DNA from: a virus
Taxonomy: Duplodnaviria; Caudoviricetes
DNA length: 64,000 nt
Virus record (IMG/VR): IMGVR_UViG_2773857766_000004
Coordinates: 32,001-96,000 of that record
Strand: one strand, 5' to 3'
The notes under the pieces were generated by a model, which worked only from the letters and a program-made list of their open reading frames with translations, did no database searches and was not told the origin of the DNA. A program made the position numbers and the translations under genes. How positions within the stretch are numbered: position 1 is the stretch's first letter; each line of letters opens with the position of its first letter. Below are positions 1,223-15,673 of the stretch, piece after piece.

Positions 1223-1732
1223 TCACCGTGCAAGGCAAAAAATGAGCACCACCGCAGGTACAAGGGGGGTACAAATGGTGGCAGCTCGATAGCTCATGTC
1301 CAGCGCCTCTGCTCGATCCACGCAACCCGTCGCGTACTCACGCGCACGGGTGTGCTCGAGTATTAACTCAGCTCTGCGAGTGACGGCAAGGGCGGAGTTC
1401 GAATCGTGCCCTTCCGCTATCCTATCGTCGTAATAATCAATTATGTTCCCCGCAGGGTTGCCGGGAGATAGGCGACGCGAAATTGCCCCGCTCCAGATCA
1501 GCTGGGCCGCAATTCCAAACCAGCTCATCGCGAGCGCAGCCACGGGAGCCCAAGCAACCGGCGTCACGCCGTCAACACCGATCTTTCCCAGGGCATAGGC
1601 ACCCAGCGCGCCGCCACCGCCCACAAGCACCGTCGCGAACTTGTAGGAGCGCTCATAGAAGTCGTCGTAGGTCTGACGCAGCACCGCCATCGTCGCGCCC
1701 GATCTTTTCTCAACGTACTCCAGCTCGTCCAT
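1223..1732 (-). CDS. Membrane protein with about 3 TM segments (immunity-region moron)
   Basis: GGAGGAG SD before ATG at 1732; three hydrophobic segments; convergent with the cI operon. Confidence 0.75.
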   Translation of the reverse strand: MDELEYVEKRSGATMAVLRQTYDDFYERSYKFATVLVGGGGALGAYALGKIGVDGVTPVAWAPVAALAMSWFGIAAQLIWSGAISRRLSPGNPAGNIIDYYDDRIAEGHDSNSALAVTRRAELILEHTRAREYATGCVDRAEALDMSYRAATICTPLVPAVVLIFCLAR

Positions 1733-1799
1733 CGACGCTCCTCCCGAGGTTGCCTGTGCATGGCGACATGATGCCGCGTGTTGACTCGCGTCGCGACCC

Positions 1800-1826
1800 A
1801 GCCCACCCACCGCGGTGGGCTTTTCT
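1800..1826 (+). terminator. Intrinsic terminator closing the cI operon
   Basis: AGCCCACC-6nt-GGTGGGCT followed by a T tract. Confidence 0.65.
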
Positions 1827-1890
1827 ACGTCCATCTCAACCATGTTCATTCCTTCGCCCGAGGGAGCGCAGAAGAAATTTTACCCAAATC

Positions 1891-1930
1891 TCACGATTGT
1901 GTTGACACGTCAATTCACGTTCGTGATAAT
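1891..1930 (+). promoter_or_regulatory. pL-type early promoter with two repressor operators
   Basis: TTGACA (1902-1907), 17-nt spacer, GATAAT (1925-1930); palindrome TCACGTTCGTGA (1915-1926) and variant TCACGATTGTGT (1891-1902). Confidence 0.85.
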
Positions 1931-1990
1931 TCACCCATCGCAGCCCCAGCTGGCAAGCGATGGGCCTCCGGATCGACGGGAGCCCCAGAG

Positions 1991-2002
1991 GCTCCTTAAA
2001 AC
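1991..2002 (+). promoter_or_regulatory. boxA-like antitermination element
   Basis: GCTCCTTAAAAC about 60 nt after the -10 box, resembling lambdoid boxA GCTCTTTAACA. Confidence 0.5.
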
Positions 2003-2439
2003 AGCGAGAGGATGAACAGGTGGCCGCCTGGCCGCCCTGCCCCTGATCCCGTGCGGCAGAAGCAAAAGCACACGCAGCGCACCCCTTTTGGAACGTGCGG
2101 CGACCCACCGGCCCCGAAGCCGGAGGTGGGGAGAACACGGCACCCGATAGTGATCGGGCACGCGGCGCCAGGCCGCCGCGGGAGCCCGTGACAGGGGAAG
2201 AAGTCCGCAACCCTCTTCGGAGGGCCATCACATCGGTCCATTGTCGCGACCCAGGTCGGTGCCAGTTGCAGTGGCCCGATGTGATGGCGACGACAACAAG
2301 CGAGTCAGGCGTCCCTGCCTGTTTCGTCATCAAGAGCGGGGCGGGGGTTCCTGGCCGTGTGCGCAGCAGGTGGAAGCCCTGCCCCCATTCCATGCGCCCT
2401 CCCGTCGAGGGCGTTTCTGTTTTTCAAGGAGCAACCACC

Positions 2440-2607
2440 ATGACAGCAACTCTCACCAAGCCCCTCACCTTCGCCCTCGCAGGCCGCCTCGTGACCAGCA
2501 GCAAGGAGGCCACGGCCATCCTGATCGACGCGATCAGGACCAGAAAGACCTGGCTCGAGCCCCAGGCGCGCAGCGTCCGCGCGAAGTTGCGCGCTGCAGG
2601 ACAGTGA
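2440..2607 (+). CDS. Small basic early protein (55 aa)
   Basis: AAGGAG SD, ATG 2440; first ORF after the pL leader. Confidence 0.7.
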   Translation: MTATLTKPLTFALAGRLVTSSKEATAILIDAIRTRKTWLEPQARSVRAKLRAAGQ

Positions 2608-2770
2608 TCACCGCGCAGCGCCTGCCCACAGCGGGTGCTGCCCAGTGCGATCCGTCGCATCCCGTTTCAGCCGCGCGCCCCGTCTCCTCCCCCTCCCTCT
2701 CATCTTGGGGCGCACCCAGGCGGCTTTTTCTTCCCCTCCCTCCCCGGCCGGAAGCCGGCACTCGATCATC

Positions 2771-3004
2771 ATGAGCCCCAAAGAAATCCAGGTCGGAAAA
2801 ACCTATGTGAACCGCGGCCAGGGCCGCACGCGCCGCACGGTTATCACCATTGGACCGAAACATGTGCCGCGCTGCTGGCACGGCTGGACGAAGCCTCCAG
2901 CGGGCACGCCGGGTGTGCTCTTCGAGCAGAACGGCCGGCGCGAAAACCTCTACCTCTCCAGCTTCGCTGCCTGGGCCGGCAAGGAAGCCCCCAACGAGGG
3001 CTGA
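2771..3004 (+). CDS. Small early protein (77 aa)
   Basis: ATG 2771, MSPKEIQVGKTYVNRG...; GC3-rich codons. Confidence 0.7.
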   Translation: MSPKEIQVGKTYVNRGQGRTRRTVITIGPKHVPRCWHGWTKPPAGTPGVLFEQNGRRENLYLSSFAAWAGKEAPNEG

Positions 3005-3155
3005 CACACCATTTCCGGCGTCCTGCTCAGGGCCGCCTTTCCACCGCGCCGGGGGAGTTCTCCTCCCCTCTCTCTCTTCCCCCGGCACGCCCCCTGGGGC
3101 AGCGGTCTTTCTACAACCCGGCCCCGCCCGGGGCCCCAGCCCCACGGAGCCTCGC

Positions 3156-3377
3156 ATGCCTGACGATTTCGTGCTGCCCTACCGCGACCCTGCCGGGAAG
3201 CGTTTCGTGCTCATCGGTCCCAGCTGCTACGGCCCCGTGCCCACCTTCCTGCGGTCGGTGGCCGATGTGCGCTGGCTGCTGCAGCAGTACCGGGCAGACG
3301 GATGCCACGCTGGCGTCACCGCCTGGCAGCGCCCGACGGCCGCGGCGCCGTGGCAGCTGATGCCTGCCGCGGCCTGA
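3156..3377 (+). CDS. Small early protein (73 aa)
   Basis: GGAG SD, ATG 3156, MPDDFVLPYRDPAG... Confidence 0.65.
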   Translation: MPDDFVLPYRDPAGKRFVLIGPSCYGPVPTFLRSVADVRWLLQQYRADGCHAGVTAWQRPTAAAPWQLMPAAA

Positions 3378-3509
3378 CGCGCCCACCACCTTCCCAGCCG
3401 GGCCGGGGGCTCTCCTCCCTCCCTCTCTCTTCCCCCTGCAGCCCTTCGATGGGCAACCGGCTTTTTCTCTACCAGCCCGCCTTCTGCGGGCTTTTTTTCA
3501 CCCTGAGCC

Positions 3510-6017
3510 ATGACCGACCCCTACCTCGATTTCCTGCGCAAGAAGATCAAGCTCGCCAACTTCGCCGGCTTCGACGTGGCACCAGAAGAGGTGAACCCGA
3601 AGCTGAAGCCCCACACCCGCGACATCGTGCGCTGGGCGGCCAAGGGCGGGTGCCGGGCGATCTTCGCGAGCTTCGGCTTGCACAAGACCGTGACGGCGCT
3701 GGAGCTGATGCGCTTGGTGGGCACGCACCGGCCCGGTATTCGCGGCATCGTCGCGCCGCTCGGCGTGCGCCATGAGTTCATCGGCCAGGCCGCGGAGCAT
3801 TTCCAGGGCGCCCACGCCATCGACGTGCGCTTCGTCCGCCGGGACAGCGAGATCGACGATGAGCGCACCATCTACCTCACCAACTACGAGGCCATCCGCG
3901 AGGGCAACATCAGCCCCGCGCGGTGGATCGCATCCAACCTGGACGAGGCGGATGTGCTGCGCAGCTACGGCAGCAAGACCTACCAGGAGTTCCTGCCAGC
4001 CTTCGCACCGGTGGAGTTCAAGTTCGTGCAGACGGCCACGCCCAGCCCGAACCGGTACAAGGAGCTGATCCACTACGCCGGATACCTGGGGGTGATGGAC
4101 ACGGGCCAGGCCCTGACCCGGTTCTTCCAGCGCGACAGCGAGCAGGCCGGCAACCTCACCCTGTACCCCCACAAGGAAAAGGAATTCTGGCTGTGGGTGG
4201 CGTCCTGGGCCGTATTCATCCAGCGGCCCAGCGATCTCGGCCACTCCGACGACGGCTACGACCTGCCGGCTCTGGACGTGCGGTATCACGAGGTGCAGAG
4301 CAACTATGAGACCGCTGGCGCCGAGAAGAGCGGTCAGGGGCTGCTGATCCCCGATGTGGCTTTGGGCCTGTCGGCCGCCGCGAGCGAGAAGCGCGCCAGC
4401 ATGCCCGCGCGGATCGACAAGGTGCGCGAGATCGTGAACGCTGATCCGCAGGACAGCTTCGTCATCTGGCACGACCTCGAAGACGAGCGCCACGCCCTGC
4501 AGGAAGCGATTCCGGAGGCCGTGAGCGTGTGGGGCACGCAGGATCTGGATGAGCGAGAGGACCGCATCGTGGGCTTCGGCGATGGCGCGTTCCGGCTGCT
4601 GTCCACCAAACCGGTCATCGCCGGCGCGGGCTGCAATTTCCAGCGGCACTGCCACCGCGAGGTGTTCGCTGGCATCGGCTTCAAGTTCAGGGATTTCATC
4701 CAGGCCATCCACCGCGTGCACCGCTTCGGGCAGACCAAGCCGGTGCGCATCGACATCATCCACACCGAGGCCGAACGGGAGGTGCTGCGCACGCTGCAGG
4801 AGAAGTGGCGGCAGCACGACGAAGTGCAGGCCCAGATGAGCAGCCTGATCCGCACCTACGGCCTGGACCAGCTGGCCATGCATGAGACGCTGGCCAGGAC
4901 GATCGGTGTGGAGCGGCGGGTTGTCAAGAGCGACCTCTTCGAGGTGGCCCACAACGACTGCGTGCTGGAGGCTCGCGAGCAGCCGGAGAACTCGGTGGAC
5001 CTGATCGTGACCAGCATCCCGTTCGCCAACCACTACGAGTACAGCCCCAGCTATAACGACTTCGGGCACACGGAGGGCAATGCGCACTTCTGGGAGCAGA
5101 TGGACTTCTTGACGCCGGAGCTGTACCGGATCCTGAAGCCCGGGCGGATCGCGGCGATCCATGTGAAAGACCGGGTGCTGTTCGGGAACGTGACCGGTCT
5201 GGGACGGCCCAGCATGGACTACTTCCACGAGGAGGCGTCCATGCACCTGCGCAAGCACGGCTTCCACAAGCTGGCCATCGTGACCATCACCACCGATGTG
5301 GTGCGAGAGAACAACCAGACCTACCGCCTGAGCTACTCGGAGATGTGCAAGGACGGCACCAAGATGGGCACGGGCTGCAGCGAGTACCTGCTGGTGTTCT
5401 TCAAGCCCCAGACCGACCTCTCGCGCGGGTATGCCGATGTGCCGGTGGCCCGGGCCAAGGCGGACTACAGCCTCGGCCGTTGGCAGATCGACGCGCATGC
5501 CTACTGGCGCTCGAGCGGCGACCGGCTGCTGTCTGCCGAGGAGATGGCGGCCATGGGCCCGGGCAAGCTGGCGAAGTTCTTCACGGACGACAGCATGCGG
5601 AGGATCTACGACTACCGGCGTCACGTCGCCATCGGCGAGCAGTTGGAGGAGCGCGGCGCCCTGCCCCGCGAATTCGCCTGCCTGCAGCCCGGGAGCCCCG
5701 ACCCGAACGTGTGGACCGACATCGCGCGCATGCGAACCCTGAACGGGGAACAAGCCAACCGGTCCGTCGAGAAGCACATCTGCCCGCTGCAGTTCGACAT
5801 CGTGGACCGCGCGATCGAACGCTGGAGCATGCGTGGCGAGAAGGTATATGACCCGTTCCACGGGCTCGGCACGGTCGGCGTGCGCGCCATCAAGCTCGGC
5901 CGGCGCGCCGGCGGGAGTGAACTGAACCCGGGCTACTTCGCCGACCAGGTGCACTACCTACAGGCGGCCGAGCGTGAGGCCAGCATGCCGTCGCTCTTTG
6001 ACACCCTGGAGGCCTGA
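3510..6017 (+). CDS. SNF2-like helicase domain fused to an N4/N6 DNA methyltransferase
   Basis: FASFGLHKT, LDEAD, TATPSPN, QAIHRVHRFGQ helicase motifs; DLIVTSIPF (motif IV) and YDPFHGLGT (motif I). Confidence 0.88.
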   Translation: MTDPYLDFLRKKIKLANFAGFDVAPEEVNPKLKPHTRDIVRWAAKGGCRAIFASFGLHKTVTALELMRLVGTHRPGIRGIVAPLGVRHEFIGQAAEHFQGAHAIDVRFVRRDSEIDDERTIYLTNYEAIREGNISPARWIASNLDEADVLRSYGSKTYQEFLPAFAPVEFKFVQTATPSPNRYKELIHYAGYLGVMDTGQALTRFFQRDSEQAGNLTLYPHKEKEFWLWVASWAVFIQRPSDLGHSDDGYDLPALDVRYHEVQSNYETAGAEKSGQGLLIPDVALGLSAAASEKRASMPARIDKVREIVNADPQDSFVIWHDLEDERHALQEAIPEAVSVWGTQDLDEREDRIVGFGDGAFRLLSTKPVIAGAGCNFQRHCHREVFAGIGFKFRDFIQAIHRVHRFGQTKPVRIDIIHTEAEREVLRTLQEKWRQHDEVQAQMSSLIRTYGLDQLAMHETLARTIGVERRVVKSDLFEVAHNDCVLEAREQPENSVDLIVTSIPFANHYEYSPSYNDFGHTEGNAHFWEQMDFLTPELYRILKPGRIAAIHVKDRVLFGNVTGLGRPSMDYFHEEASMHLRKHGFHKLAIVTITTDVVRENNQTYRLSYSEMCKDGTKMGTGCSEYLLVFFKPQTDLSRGYADVPVARAKADYSLGRWQIDAHAYWRSSGDRLLSAEEMAAMGPGKLAKFFTDDSMRRIYDYRRHVAIGEQLEERGALPREFACLQPGSPDPNVWTDIARMRTLNGEQANRSVEKHICPLQFDIVDRAIERWSMRGEKVYDPFHGLGTVGVRAIKLGRRAGGSELNPGYFADQVHYLQAAEREASMPSLFDTLEA

Positions 6018-15596: not shown

Positions 15597-15673
15597 TGGG
15601 GTGGCTGATGGGACTCGAACCCACGACGACAGGAATCACAATCCTGGACTCTACCAACTGAGCTACAGCCACC
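15597..15673 (-). tRNA. tRNA-His (GTG), intact; att site of prophage A
   Basis: GGTGGCTGTAGCTCAGTTGGTAGAG...GATTGTGATTC...GGTTCGAGTCCC...CCA; TATAAT upstream at 15684-15689. Confidence 0.97.

What the first reader, a model, noticed from the sequence alone, without database searches (positions are those of the whole stretch)
2669..3468. Array of three structured RNA-like units with CUCCUCCC loops alternating with small ORFs
Seen: downstream of each of three small early ORFs is a unit with a closing stem (AGCCGC/GCGGCT; AGGGCCGC/GCGGTCTT; AGCCGG/CCGGCT), an inner GC stem (unit 2 has a perfect 9 bp GCCGGGGGA/TCCCCCGGC) whose loop of about 20 nt always contains TCTCCTCCC followed by CT repeats, in units 2 and 3 a third GCCC...GGGC hairpin, and a T tract. 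Stems differ in sequence but keep pairing while the loop is conserved, the signature of a structured RNA. Known: CCUCC is the anti-Shine-Dalgarno, and alphaproteobacterial cuckoo sRNAs present CCUCCUCCC loops. Inference: phage-encoded 3'-UTR-derived anti-SD sRNAs that block host or rival-phage translation, or sponge a host sRNA or protein.
Basis: partly seen in the sequence, partly recalled or inferred. Interest (0 to 1): 0.75.

Follow-up and report, generated by a model that had tools for sequence, protein, structure and literature searches.

The report
Phage RNA modules copying host sRNA loop
Three folded RNA modules between small genes of a Paracidovorax prophage belong to an uncatalogued phage RNA family whose exposed pyrimidine-rich loop repeats the loop of a small RNA conserved in the host's bacterial family, so the phage probably makes its own copies of a host regulator.

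Summary
Three units on the + strand (2663-2734, 3036-3116, 3390-3471) each fold into a closing stem, an inner hairpin with an unpaired 21-23 nt CU loop (core CUCCUCCC), a small third hairpin in units 2 and 3, and a U-rich tail. No Rfam family matches them. They belong to a wider family. A covariance model built from 21 units of other viral contigs scores them at 64.0, 57.3 and 40.5 bits. In that alignment 9 of 16 pairs show compensatory changes. Named genome matches are all Comamonas, Delftia, Acidovorax or Comamonadaceae. Most relatives (28 of 35) are followed by a canonical terminator, as unit 3 is, which gives a typical sRNA layout. The same loop sits in a separate host RNA, also absent from Rfam. 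It matches once per genome in nearly all of 106 of 151 genomes of the host's family, and lies behind a sigma-E-type promoter motif. RNA-seq assemblies from three studies contain the region, and contig depth drops about tenfold across unit 1. Best reading (about 0.45): phage-made, terminator-ended small RNAs that imitate the host sRNA's seed and also attenuate the operon. Trans action, RNA ends and targets are not shown. The units are not members of the alphaproteobacterial cuckoo family.

The parts
1902..1930 (+). Sigma-70-like promoter (TTGACA-17-GATAAT). It is the likely start of the rightward transcript that carries the array.
   Evidence: 11 of 12 consensus matches; 2 promoter-like sites in 1500-4500 against 0.2 expected. 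This is a consensus match only.
2394..2422 (+). Terminator-like hairpin plus T tract, ahead of ORF1. In the second prophage copy and in L158 an equivalent terminator abuts unit 1 directly.
2440..2607 (+). Small ORF1 (55 aa), preceded by AAGGAG; no known family.
2663..2734 (+). Unit 1. P1 2669-2674/2720-2725, P2 2675-2682/2706-2713, CU loop 2683-2705, no P3, tail UUUUUCUU.
   Evidence: R2 40.5 bits, E 4.8e-10. Fold z -3.28. A relative (L088) carries a compensatory C-G to G-C change in P2. RNA contig depth drops about tenfold across it in 3 studies.
2771..3004 (+). Small ORF2 (77 aa), no SD, no known family. It is absent between units 1 and 2 in relatives L008 and L088.
3036..3116 (+). Unit 2. 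P1 3043-3047/3102-3106 by homology (alternative 3029-3036/3102-3109), P2 3048-3056/3078-3086, CU loop 3057-3077, P3 3089-3092/3097-3100, tail CUUUCU.
   Evidence: R2 64.0 bits, E 2.5e-17. Fold.
3156..3377 (+). Small ORF3 (73 aa), SD GGAG, no known family.
3390..3471 (+). Unit 3. P1 3396-3401/3457-3462, P2 3405-3409/3432-3436, CU loop 3410-3431, P3 3441-3444/3451-3454, U-rich linker. The loop holds an 18-nt run identical to part of the loop of the host sRNA of P. citrulli DSM 17060.
   Evidence: R2 57.3 bits, E 2.9e-15. Fold z -3.09, measured together with the terminator. Loop compared with L157.
3474..3499 (+). Canonical intrinsic terminator (7 bp stem, 5 nt loop, T7) directly after unit 3. 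It completes the family's usual 'unit + terminator' form.
   Evidence: 28 of 35 non-window units have such a terminator.
3510..6017 (+). Helicase / N6-N4 DNA methyltransferase fusion gene, the first large gene after the array.
   Evidence: PF01555; phrog_16, 6.7e-110.

Best explanation
The three units are members of an uncatalogued structured RNA family carried by (pro)phages of Comamonadaceae.

Each unit is a small junction. A closing stem P1 encloses a hairpin P2, which holds a 21-23 nt CU-rich loop (core CUCCUCCC) unpaired. Usually there is also a short hairpin P3. A conserved U-rich flank (cUUUUca) precedes P1 and a U-rich stretch follows it.

I think the units are made as small RNAs from the prophage's rightward operon. 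The 3' ends would come from termination at the unit's own stem plus U tract, or at the canonical terminator after unit 3. The 5' ends would come from cleavage in the U-rich flank.

The exposed loop would pair with G-rich ribosome-binding regions of mRNAs. That would imitate, under phage control, a host small RNA of the same bacterial family that carries the same loop behind a sigma-E-type promoter.

The same structures would also attenuate read-through into the downstream genes.

Shown:
- family membership
- covariation
- loop exposure in predicted folds
- the shared loop and restricted taxonomic range
- presence in RNA assemblies

Inferred:
- discrete small RNAs
- processing
- base-pairing in trans
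- identity of targets
For: 1. Real RNA family.
- Model R2 was built from 21 units of other viral contigs, excluding the window and the two contigs that visibly carry unit-2- and unit-3-type copies (L238, L261).
- It scores the window's units at 64.0, 57.3 and 40.5 bits, and nothing else in 64 kb below E 0.68.
- On that alignment 90.2% of cells pair, against 31-50% with slid partners; 9 of 16 pairs change on both sides; 0 of 500 shuffles reach the observed covariation.

2. Strand and place.
- All matches are co-oriented with their flanking ORFs and lie between them (37 units).

3. sRNA-like layout.
- 28 of 35 non-window units are followed within a few bases by a canonical hairpin plus T tract, as unit 3 is (3474-3499).
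- The loops are unpaired with probability 0.98-1.00.

4. The loop is what is kept.
- Stems differ between units, prophages and genera while CUCCUCC(C) persists. This holds even in low-scoring variants with otherwise different loops.

5. Host counterpart.
- Model R1 (15 sequences; 11 of 23 pairs compensatory) matches 106 of 151 genomes of the host's family, nearly always once per genome.
- In a sample of the order it matches only 3 of 151 genomes, all three from that family.
- A sigma-E-type motif precedes it in 17 of 30 loci, against 0 of 30 in each of two controls. The consensus is taken from PMC1804206.
- R2 scores host copies at 21-26 bits, and R1 scores phage units at 14-32 bits.

6. Phage units are accessory and confined to the same family.
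- R2 matches 5 of 151 family genomes.
- 14 of 49 pattern hits across about 185,000 species genomes match R2, all titled Comamonas, Delftia, Acidovorax or Comamonadaceae.

7. RNA.
- The stretch is held in RNA runs of at least 3 studies.
- Contig mean depth is 347, 447 and 167 up to unit 1, against 33, 27 and 17.6 just after it, in X1, X5 and X7.

8. Analogy.
- CcsR RNAs with CCUCCUCCC loops are cut out of a small-ORF transcript by RNase E at GUUUCC, CUCUUC and ACUUC (PMC8034643, passages read). This resembles the conserved cUUUUca flank here.
Against: - No reads were available, only contigs, so no RNA end, size or strand is shown. The tool warns that contig depth is a poor measure of expression. 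Part of the downstream contigs in X5 and X7 are the variant of the second prophage copy.
- Units 1 and 2 lack the canonical downstream terminator.
- The exact complement RGGGAGGAGR is not enriched in the host genome: 35 matches against 45 for the reversed control. Only 5 of 30 fetched sites lie before a possible start codon.
- The similarity between the phage and host RNAs rests mostly on the loop. The order of the hairpins differs, and both families were first collected with loop-motif patterns, which inflates apparent loop identity.
- A relative keeps the unit-2 scaffold with the CU loop replaced by a 5-6 nt loop (L158). The scaffold can therefore persist without the loop.
- No sigma-70 consensus promoter was found directly upstream of units in two relatives.
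Confidence: 0.45

Rival explanations
1. The units act only in cis. They would be attenuators or terminators that meter read-through into successive early genes and protect upstream mRNA 3' ends. Being conserved linkers, they would also serve as recombination joints between gene modules. The CU loop would be kept for a cis reason, such as binding an antitermination or host factor on the nascent RNA.
For: - Each unit ends in a stem plus U-rich tract.
- RNA contig depth drops about tenfold across unit 1 in 3 studies.
- Homology between the two prophage copies begins exactly at unit 1. ORF1 and ORF2 are present or absent between otherwise conserved units.
- Terminators stand before ORF1 and before the helicase gene, which suggests an operon governed by antitermination.
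- L158 keeps the scaffold without the CU loop.
Against: - A terminator needs no 14-nt loop sequence conserved across genera, nor a loop held unpaired.
- Most family members already have a separate canonical terminator right behind the unit (28 of 35), so the unit is not needed for termination.
- The same loop occurs in a free-standing host RNA with its own promoter motif.
Confidence: 0.25
2. The units are decoys or sponges. The repeated CU loops would titrate whatever binds the host sRNA's loop: a protein that recognises pyrimidine-rich or anti-SD-like RNA, or G-rich RNAs. Phage transcription would then blunt or redirect the host's stress response rather than mimic it.
For: - Three loops lie in one operon and up to three unit-bearing prophage regions in one genome.
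- Loop identity with the host RNA.
- Prophage-encoded anti-sRNAs are known in E. coli (PMC4104026, search listing and abstract only).
Against: - No candidate binding protein or complementary host RNA was identified.
- The exact complement is not enriched.
- The loops are the same sense as the host sRNA, not complementary to it, so they cannot sponge that sRNA directly.
Confidence: 0.15
3. The element works at the DNA level. The polypyrimidine tract flanked by inverted repeats would act as a recombination, replication or protein-binding site, for example as triplex-prone DNA, and the RNA fold would be incidental.
For: - Long polypyrimidine runs with mirror symmetry.
- Mosaic joints at the units.
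Against: - Strict co-orientation with transcription in all 37 units examined.
- Compensatory changes that include G-U pairs.
- Flanking U tracts and downstream terminators.
- R2 matches in the window on the + strand only.
Confidence: 0.05
4. The units are true members, by descent, of the alphaproteobacterial cuckoo / CcsR family, transferred to betaproteobacterial phages.
For: - CUCCUCCC core in hairpin loops, with exact CCUCCUCCC in some relatives.
- Several modules per transcript, next to small ORFs, as for ccaF1-ccsR1-4.
Against: - No cuckoo-type Rfam family among the matches up to E 10.
- Each unit is a junction with a closing stem and its own U tract, whereas cuckoo RNAs are rows of simple hairpins without multiloops.
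- A different bacterial class.
Confidence: 0.03

Closest known systems
Cuckoo / CcsR RNAs of Alphaproteobacteria (RSs0680a-d, ar14, SmelA075 and others)
   Same: - Hairpin loops of 9-27 nt carry a CCUCCUCCC-type anti-SD-like motif while the stems vary.
- Several modules are made from one transcript.
- In Rhodobacter they are co-transcribed with a small ORF and released by RNase E at U-rich sites.
- They sit behind a stress sigma factor promoter, as the host RNA here appears to.
Sources: PMC4615179 and PMC8034643, passages read.
   Different: - Cuckoo RNAs are rows of 2-4 simple adjacent hairpins without multiloops, chromosomal or plasmid-borne, in Alphaproteobacteria.
- The units here are three-way junctions with a closing stem and their own U tract.
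- They are interleaved with ORFs, borne by phages, and found in Comamonadaceae.
- No Rfam model matches them.
- The window's loops read UCUCCUCCC, which is 8 of the 9 motif bases.
StxS, the terminated PR' transcript of Shiga-toxin phages
   Same: A prophage transcript that ends at a terminator inside an antitermination-controlled operon doubles as a regulatory small RNA in lysogens (PMC7547250, search listing and abstract only).
   Different: - StxS is a single promoter-proximal RNA of enterobacterial lambdoid phages.
- It has no CU loop, no array, and no host sRNA with the same seed.
Prophage-encoded anti-sRNAs AgvB and AsxR of EHEC
   Same: Prophage RNAs that interfere with the network of core host sRNAs (PMC4104026, abstract only).
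   Different: They are complementary to host sRNA seeds and act as sponges. The units here carry the same sense as the host RNA's loop, so they would be mimics.
Sigma-E-dependent sRNAs RybB and MicA of enterobacteria (comparison for the host RNA)
   Same: A conserved chromosomal small RNA behind a GGAACTT / GTCNAA-type promoter that ends in a terminator (PMC1804206, passages read; motif count).
   Different: - No sequence or Rfam similarity.
- The host RNA here has a roughly 30-nt CU loop inside a junction rather than a 5' seed.
- Regulation by sigma E and omp targets are untested.

Membership tests
Phage CU-loop unit family (model R2, defined here) | Match to a covariance model built from independent viral-contig units | tested here: met
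   64.0, 57.3 and 40.5 bits; E 2.5e-17 to 4.8e-10 in a 122 kb search.
Phage CU-loop unit family (model R2, defined here) | P1 closing stem, P2 with CU loop, P3 hairpin, U-rich flanks on both sides | tested here: met
   Units 2 and 3 have all of these. Unit 1 lacks P3. Covariation of the three helices is shown.
Phage CU-loop unit family (model R2, defined here) | Canonical terminator directly downstream | tested here: inconclusive
   Present after unit 3 only. 28 of 35 relatives have it.
Cuckoo / CcsR RNA family | Loop motif CCUCCUCCC | tested here: inconclusive
   The window's loops have UCUCCUCCC (8 of 9). The exact 9-mer occurs in relatives B2, L007 unit 2, L008 unit 2 and L092. I could not see the motif variants the paper allows, which are in its figure and supplements.
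Cuckoo / CcsR RNA family | 2-4 adjacent simple hairpins, no multiloop | tested here: not met
   Each unit is a junction closed by P1. Units are 300-360 nt apart with ORFs between them.
Cuckoo / CcsR RNA family | Match to the Rfam models of the family | tested here: not met
   10 matches up to E 10 in 2400-3700, none of them a cuckoo-type family.
Cuckoo / CcsR RNA family | Release from a small-ORF transcript by RNase E | not testable with these tools
   Only assembled contigs of the RNA runs were available.
Host CU-loop sRNA of Comamonadaceae (model R1, defined here) | Match to R1, and architecture P1 / small hairpin / CU-loop hairpin | tested here: not met
   The window's units score 16.3, 15.4 and 14.1 bits (E 0.097-0.33), driven by the loop. 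The hairpin order is reversed.
Host CU-loop sRNA of Comamonadaceae (model R1, defined here) | Sigma-E-type promoter motif upstream | tested here: not met
   No match to the motif on the + strand of window 1500-3600.
Intrinsic (Rho-independent) terminators | GC-rich stem directly followed by a U tract, with transcripts ending there | tested here: inconclusive
   Stem plus U tract is present. The scan tool lists only sub-hairpins of the units, plus the separate terminator at 3474-3492. Contig depth drops across unit 1. No 3' ends could be mapped.
Hfq-type base-pairing sRNAs | Accessible seed, U-rich linker, terminator hairpin with U tail; Hfq binding | tested here: inconclusive
   The sequence layout is met by unit 3 plus its terminator and by 28 of 35 relatives. 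Hfq binding is not testable here. The layout rule is recalled, not taken from a call.

The most novel reading that the evidence does not exclude
Prophages of Comamonadaceae have captured, or converged on, the seed loop of their hosts' sigma-E-type envelope-stress small RNA. They express it in one to three copies from their own operons. A resident or infecting phage could then switch on part of the host's envelope-stress regulon at will. For example, it could lower outer-membrane proteins that serve as phage receptors (superinfection exclusion), or pre-empt the stress caused by phage assembly. Two RNA families that no catalogue holds would then form a host and phage-mimic pair.
Probability: 0.25. 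Interest if true: 0.8.

Novelty: new variant of a known kind. Interest (0 to 1): 0.66.

Why it matters
Phage-encoded small RNAs are known mostly from a few enterobacterial and Vibrio phages. In this case a whole phage RNA family is supported by covariation and tied to one bacterial family.

Its functional loop repeats that of a conserved host RNA which itself appears undescribed. It has no Rfam match, and my literature searches found no report of it.

If the mimicry is real, it gives a testable example of phages borrowing a host regulator's specificity rather than its protein machinery. It would also give an entry point to the unknown regulon of a core stress sRNA in Comamonadaceae, a group that includes plant pathogens and environmental degraders.

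Even if the units act only in cis, both RNA families deserve Rfam entries. They would also improve the annotation of prophage early regions.

Tried and rejected
- **Rfam.** No family other than one tRNA reaches its gathering score in the window. Nothing relevant appears up to E 10 in 2400-3700. There are 0 matches at E 0.1 or less in 7 host-sRNA loci.
- **blastn of 2400-3600 against 50,697 phage records.** No match.
- **Relatives of ORF2.** Two scans used the wrong reading frame by my slip. The repeat in the right frame found 0 genome loci and 1 viral locus. ORF2 is therefore too rare to trace the array.
- **MAFFT alignments of all units, or of the P2 hairpins alone** (A1, A2, A3). They did not respect the stems, so I did not use them for models.
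- **Helicase-methylase relatives.** Among the 148 relatives fetched (80 of 423 viral, 68 genome), only the three closest (L008, L088 and the L006/L007 contig) hold arrays, and L092 and L023 hold single units. The units do not travel with that gene.
- **Target hint.** The exact complement RGGGAGGAGR in the P. citrulli DSM 17060 genome gives 35 matches against 45 for the reversed control. About 6 of the 35 are the antisense of the RNAs themselves. Only 5 of 30 fetched sites precede a possible ORF. There is no signal.
- **A possible target next to the array.** The GGGAGGAG-N5-ATG Shine-Dalgarno of the minus-strand gene (1745-1730) is complementary to the loops. Relatives L007, L008 and L088 have no such site upstream, so I dropped it.
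- **Own promoters for the units.** The consensus scan found none upstream of units in L347 and L383. A recurrent GCATACTG about 20 nt upstream in some relatives is unexplained.
- **RNA runs.** They were available as contigs only. Parts without cover, and run X12, whose contig is the variant copy, tell nothing about expression.
- **Literature.** I searched CCUCCUCCC (47 papers, 30 listed), Acidovorax citrulli sRNA (7), anti-SD/sRNA/prophage/betaproteobacteria (27, 15 listed), Comamonas sRNA and phage-encoded sRNA mimic. None describes these RNAs. The main text of the cuckoo paper has 0 occurrences of 'phage' or 'betaproteobacteria'.
Full report
**What is there**

The window is part of a 116 kb provirus record. 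Its closest named relative is a contig of Paracidovorax citrulli DSM 17060, with 98% identity over the first 300 residues of the helicase-methylase gene.

At the left end lie, in order:
- a CI/LexA-like repressor gene (2-616; PF00717, phrog_4)
- a sigma-70-like promoter (1902-1930, 11 of 12 matches)
- a roughly 480-nt stretch with no convincing ORF, ending in a terminator (2394-2422)
- three small ORFs of no known family (2440-2607, 2771-3004, 3156-3377)
- a helicase/N6-N4 methylase gene (3510-6017)

Predicted folds show a closing stem, an inner GC stem with a 21-23 nt loop beginning UCUCCUCCC, a third small hairpin in units 2 and 3, and a U-rich tail. Z-scores are -3.28, -2.41 and -3.09. The CU cores stay unpaired in a 180-200 nt context (0.98-1.00).

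**Not in Rfam**

- The only match in the window at gathering score is a tRNA. ARAGORN calls it tRNA-His at 15597-15672 on the minus strand.
- Up to E 10, the stretch 2400-3700 gives ten weak, unrelated matches.

**Close relatives and modularity**

The same record holds a second, related prophage about 66 kb downstream, outside the window. It has a copy of the array at 89.6% identity. Several points show that the units behave as modules:
- Homology between the two copies starts exactly at the 5' edge of unit 1. In the second copy a terminator abuts unit 1 where the window has ORF1, and unit 3 has lost its 3' half.
- In L008 and L088, units 1 and 2 are adjacent without ORF2.
- L088's unit 1 carries a compensatory C-G to G-C change in P2.
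- In another prophage of DSM 17060 (L158), a unit-2 scaffold has its CU loop replaced by a short loop.
- Single units with quite different stems and the same loop occur next to helicase-methylase genes of a Hydrogenophaga MAG (L092) and of a viral contig (L023).

**A wide phage family**

In 51 of the 80 the motif sits in the loop of a hairpin of 5 bp or more.

I aligned 21 of these units (A5), leaving out the window and the two contigs that visibly carry unit-2- and unit-3-type copies (L238, L261). On a three-helix structure read from the alignment:
- 90.2% of cells pair, against 31-50% when partners are slid
- 9 of 16 pairs change on both sides
- 0 of 500 shuffles reach the observed covariation score

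The resulting model R2 gave these results:
- It finds the window's units at 64.0 bits (3036-3116), 57.3 bits (3390-3471) and 40.5 bits (2663-2734). Nothing else in the window scores below E 0.68.
- It finds 40 matches in the 80 viral loci.
- It matches 5 of 151 genomes sampled from the host's family. One of these, G039, is the host sRNA locus cross-matching.
- Of 49 pattern hits across the species-level genome collection, 14 match R2. All 14 are titled Comamonas, Delftia, Acidovorax or Comamonadaceae. None of the other 35 match; they are mostly Streptomyces, Gemmatimonadota, Planctomycetota and other unrelated taxa, plus one Comamonadaceae MAG.

The units lie between co-oriented, mostly small ORFs. 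Of ten flanking proteins tested, five hit PHROG families: four of unknown function, and one D5-like regulator/HNH.

The model consensus reads: cUUUUca, P1 GCCGg, P2 gcCuGGg, loop ..CUCCUCCCUCCCUCUCU.., P2', P3, P1' cCGGC, then uuUUUuu.

In 28 of 35 non-window units a canonical hairpin plus T tract follows within a few bases. In the window only unit 3 has it (3474-3499). The usual form is therefore: loop domain, U-rich linker, terminator. From recalled knowledge, this is the layout of Hfq-type sRNAs.

**The host counterpart**

A pattern search in the DSM 17060 genome found six CU tracts, against one for the control. One of them (G001:C33:77109-77209) lies downstream of a glutathione peroxidase gene in lower-GC DNA.

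The same 15-mer recurs across the family. 287 of 401 genomes have a pattern match, and most of the listed matches read CTCCTCCCTCCCTC[CT].

Fifteen such loci align into a roughly 100-nt RNA. It has a 10-bp closing stem, a small hairpin, a 10-bp hairpin with a roughly 30-nt CU loop, and a U tract. 11 of 23 predicted pairs show compensatory changes.

Model R1 gave these results:
- It matches 106 of 151 genomes of the family, nearly always once per genome. This count includes the unpublished genome G146.
- In a sample of the order it matches 3 of 151 genomes. All three carry handles from the family sample.
- Rfam has no match for these loci.

Upstream, 17 of 30 loci match GAAC-N17-20-TCNNW, against 0 of 30 in each of two controls. 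By eye most of the rest carry GGAAC as well. This fits the sigma-E promoter boxes GGAACTTTT / GTCAAA quoted in PMC1804206. The window has no such motif near the units.

R1 scores the phage units at 14-32 bits, and R2 scores host copies at 21-26 bits. The two families therefore share the loop, a closing stem and the U tail, but not the order of the hairpins. Unit 3's loop and the DSM 17060 host loop share an identical 18-nt run.

One caveat applies. Both families were first collected with loop-motif patterns, which overstates loop identity. Low-scoring R2 members with otherwise different loops still keep CUCCUCC.

**RNA evidence**

The stretch is held in RNA-seq assemblies of at least three studies. 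Only contigs could be laid. Mean contig depth was:

| Run | Up to unit 1 (contigs end at 2697 or 2653) | Next contig (2668-2958) |
|---|---|---|
| X1 | 347 | 33 |
| X5 | 447 | 27 |
| X7 | 167 | 17.6 |

- The contig breaks fall on sequence shared by the two copies.
- Some of the downstream contigs are the variant copy.
- Contig depth is a poor measure of expression.

I therefore read this only as a weak hint that most transcripts end, or are less stable, beyond unit 1. Uneven depth does argue against plain DNA carry-over.

A further copy of unit 3's 5' half and loop, in a different context, is present in these runs (loose ends at 3394 and 3436).

**How it most likely works**

The conserved, exposed loop cannot be explained by termination alone. 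This is especially so because most members have a separate terminator.

The layout, the U-rich flanks and the host counterpart point to small RNAs that use the loop for recognition. By analogy with CcsR RNAs, which RNase E cuts out of a small-ORF transcript at GUUUCC, CUCUUC and ACUUC (PMC8034643), the cUUUUca flank may be a processing site.

I put this reading at 0.45: phage-made mimics of the host sRNA seed that also attenuate the operon. The rivals are:

| Rival reading | Odds |
|---|---|
| Cis-only attenuators or linkers | 0.25 |
| Decoys for a loop-binding factor | 0.15 |
| DNA-level element | 0.05 |
| True cuckoo membership | 0.03 |

A crude target test found nothing. The exact complement gives 35 matches against 45 for the control, and 5 of 30 fetched sites lie near a possible start.

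**Comparison with known systems**

The units work like cuckoo/CcsR RNAs but fail three defining features of that family: simple adjacent hairpins, an Rfam match, and taxon.

StxS and the EHEC anti-sRNAs are the nearest phage precedents. I saw only their search listing and abstracts.

I found no report of either RNA family.

**Verdict**

- Novelty: a new variant of a known kind (a phage-encoded sRNA-like family), paired with an apparently undescribed host sRNA.
- Interest: 0.66.

Noticed in passing
L157/L196 (G001:C33:77109-77209, +) and loci L162-L221: A conserved host RNA of about 100 nt, matched once per genome in nearly all of 106 of 151 genomes of the host's family. It has a 10-bp closing stem, a small hairpin, a hairpin with a roughly 30-nt CU loop, and a U tract. 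11 of 23 pairs are compensatory. It lies behind a GGAACTT/GTCNAA (sigma-E-type) motif. In both loci examined it is downstream of a glutathione peroxidase gene. It has no Rfam match.
   Followed up: yes
G000:C1:100828-111000 (outside the window, about 66 kb downstream): A second related prophage in the same record. It shares blocks at 78-96% identity, including a diverged copy of the array. Homology starts exactly at unit 1, and its unit 3 has lost its 3' half and the terminator.
   Followed up: partly
window 1931-2422 (+): About 480 nt between a strong sigma-70-like promoter and a terminator, with no convincing ORF. This stretch and ORF1 have the highest RNA contig depth in three studies of presumably uninduced cultures. 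It may be a long leader or a non-coding RNA expressed in lysogens.
   Followed up: no
window 1730-1745 (- strand): The minus-strand gene listed as 1223-1849 has an internal ATG at 1732-1730 preceded by GGGAGGAG-N5. This is an extended Shine-Dalgarno exactly complementary to the units' CUCCUCCC. It is not found upstream of the arrays in L007, L008 or L088.
   Followed up: partly
L158 1568-1624 (G001:C36): A unit-2-type scaffold (P1, P2, P3, U tract; R2 27.9 bits) whose CU loop is replaced by a 5-6 nt loop. It is a natural 'loopless' variant beside an intact unit 1.
   Followed up: partly
L156 (G001:C30:165003), L233, L277: A more distant variant. A 27-33 nt CU loop is closed by CCCTGG/CCGGGG-type stems and followed by a GAGGCCGC..GCGGCTTC hairpin and a U tract. 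It is seen in a third region of the DSM 17060 genome and in two viral contigs. R2 gives L156 only 13 bits.
   Followed up: no
window 3394-3436, RNA runs X1, X5, X7: RNA contigs carry this 43-nt piece of unit 3 (with 2 differences) flanked on both sides by unrelated sequence. The sequenced strains therefore hold at least one more unit in another context.
   Followed up: no
L229, L347, L389, L377: about 20-45 nt upstream of their units: A palindrome CTTTCCTTCAGGAAAG followed by GCATACTG recurs just upstream of units in Delftia- and Comamonas-type relatives. It may be an operator and -10 region, although the consensus scan called no promoter.
   Followed up: partly
window 15597-15672 (-): A tRNA-His (GTG) gene inside the provirus record (63.1 bits in Rfam; also called by ARAGORN).
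   Followed up: partly
L354 5175-5409; L229/L250 and L347/L377 second units: Other phages also carry two units. In L354 they lie 60 nt apart with no ORF between them. In L229/L250 and L347/L377 they are about 520-620 nt apart, and the second unit has a different loop (UUGACUCAUGGUUCUCCUCCUGGAAU) on the same scaffold.
   Followed up: partly
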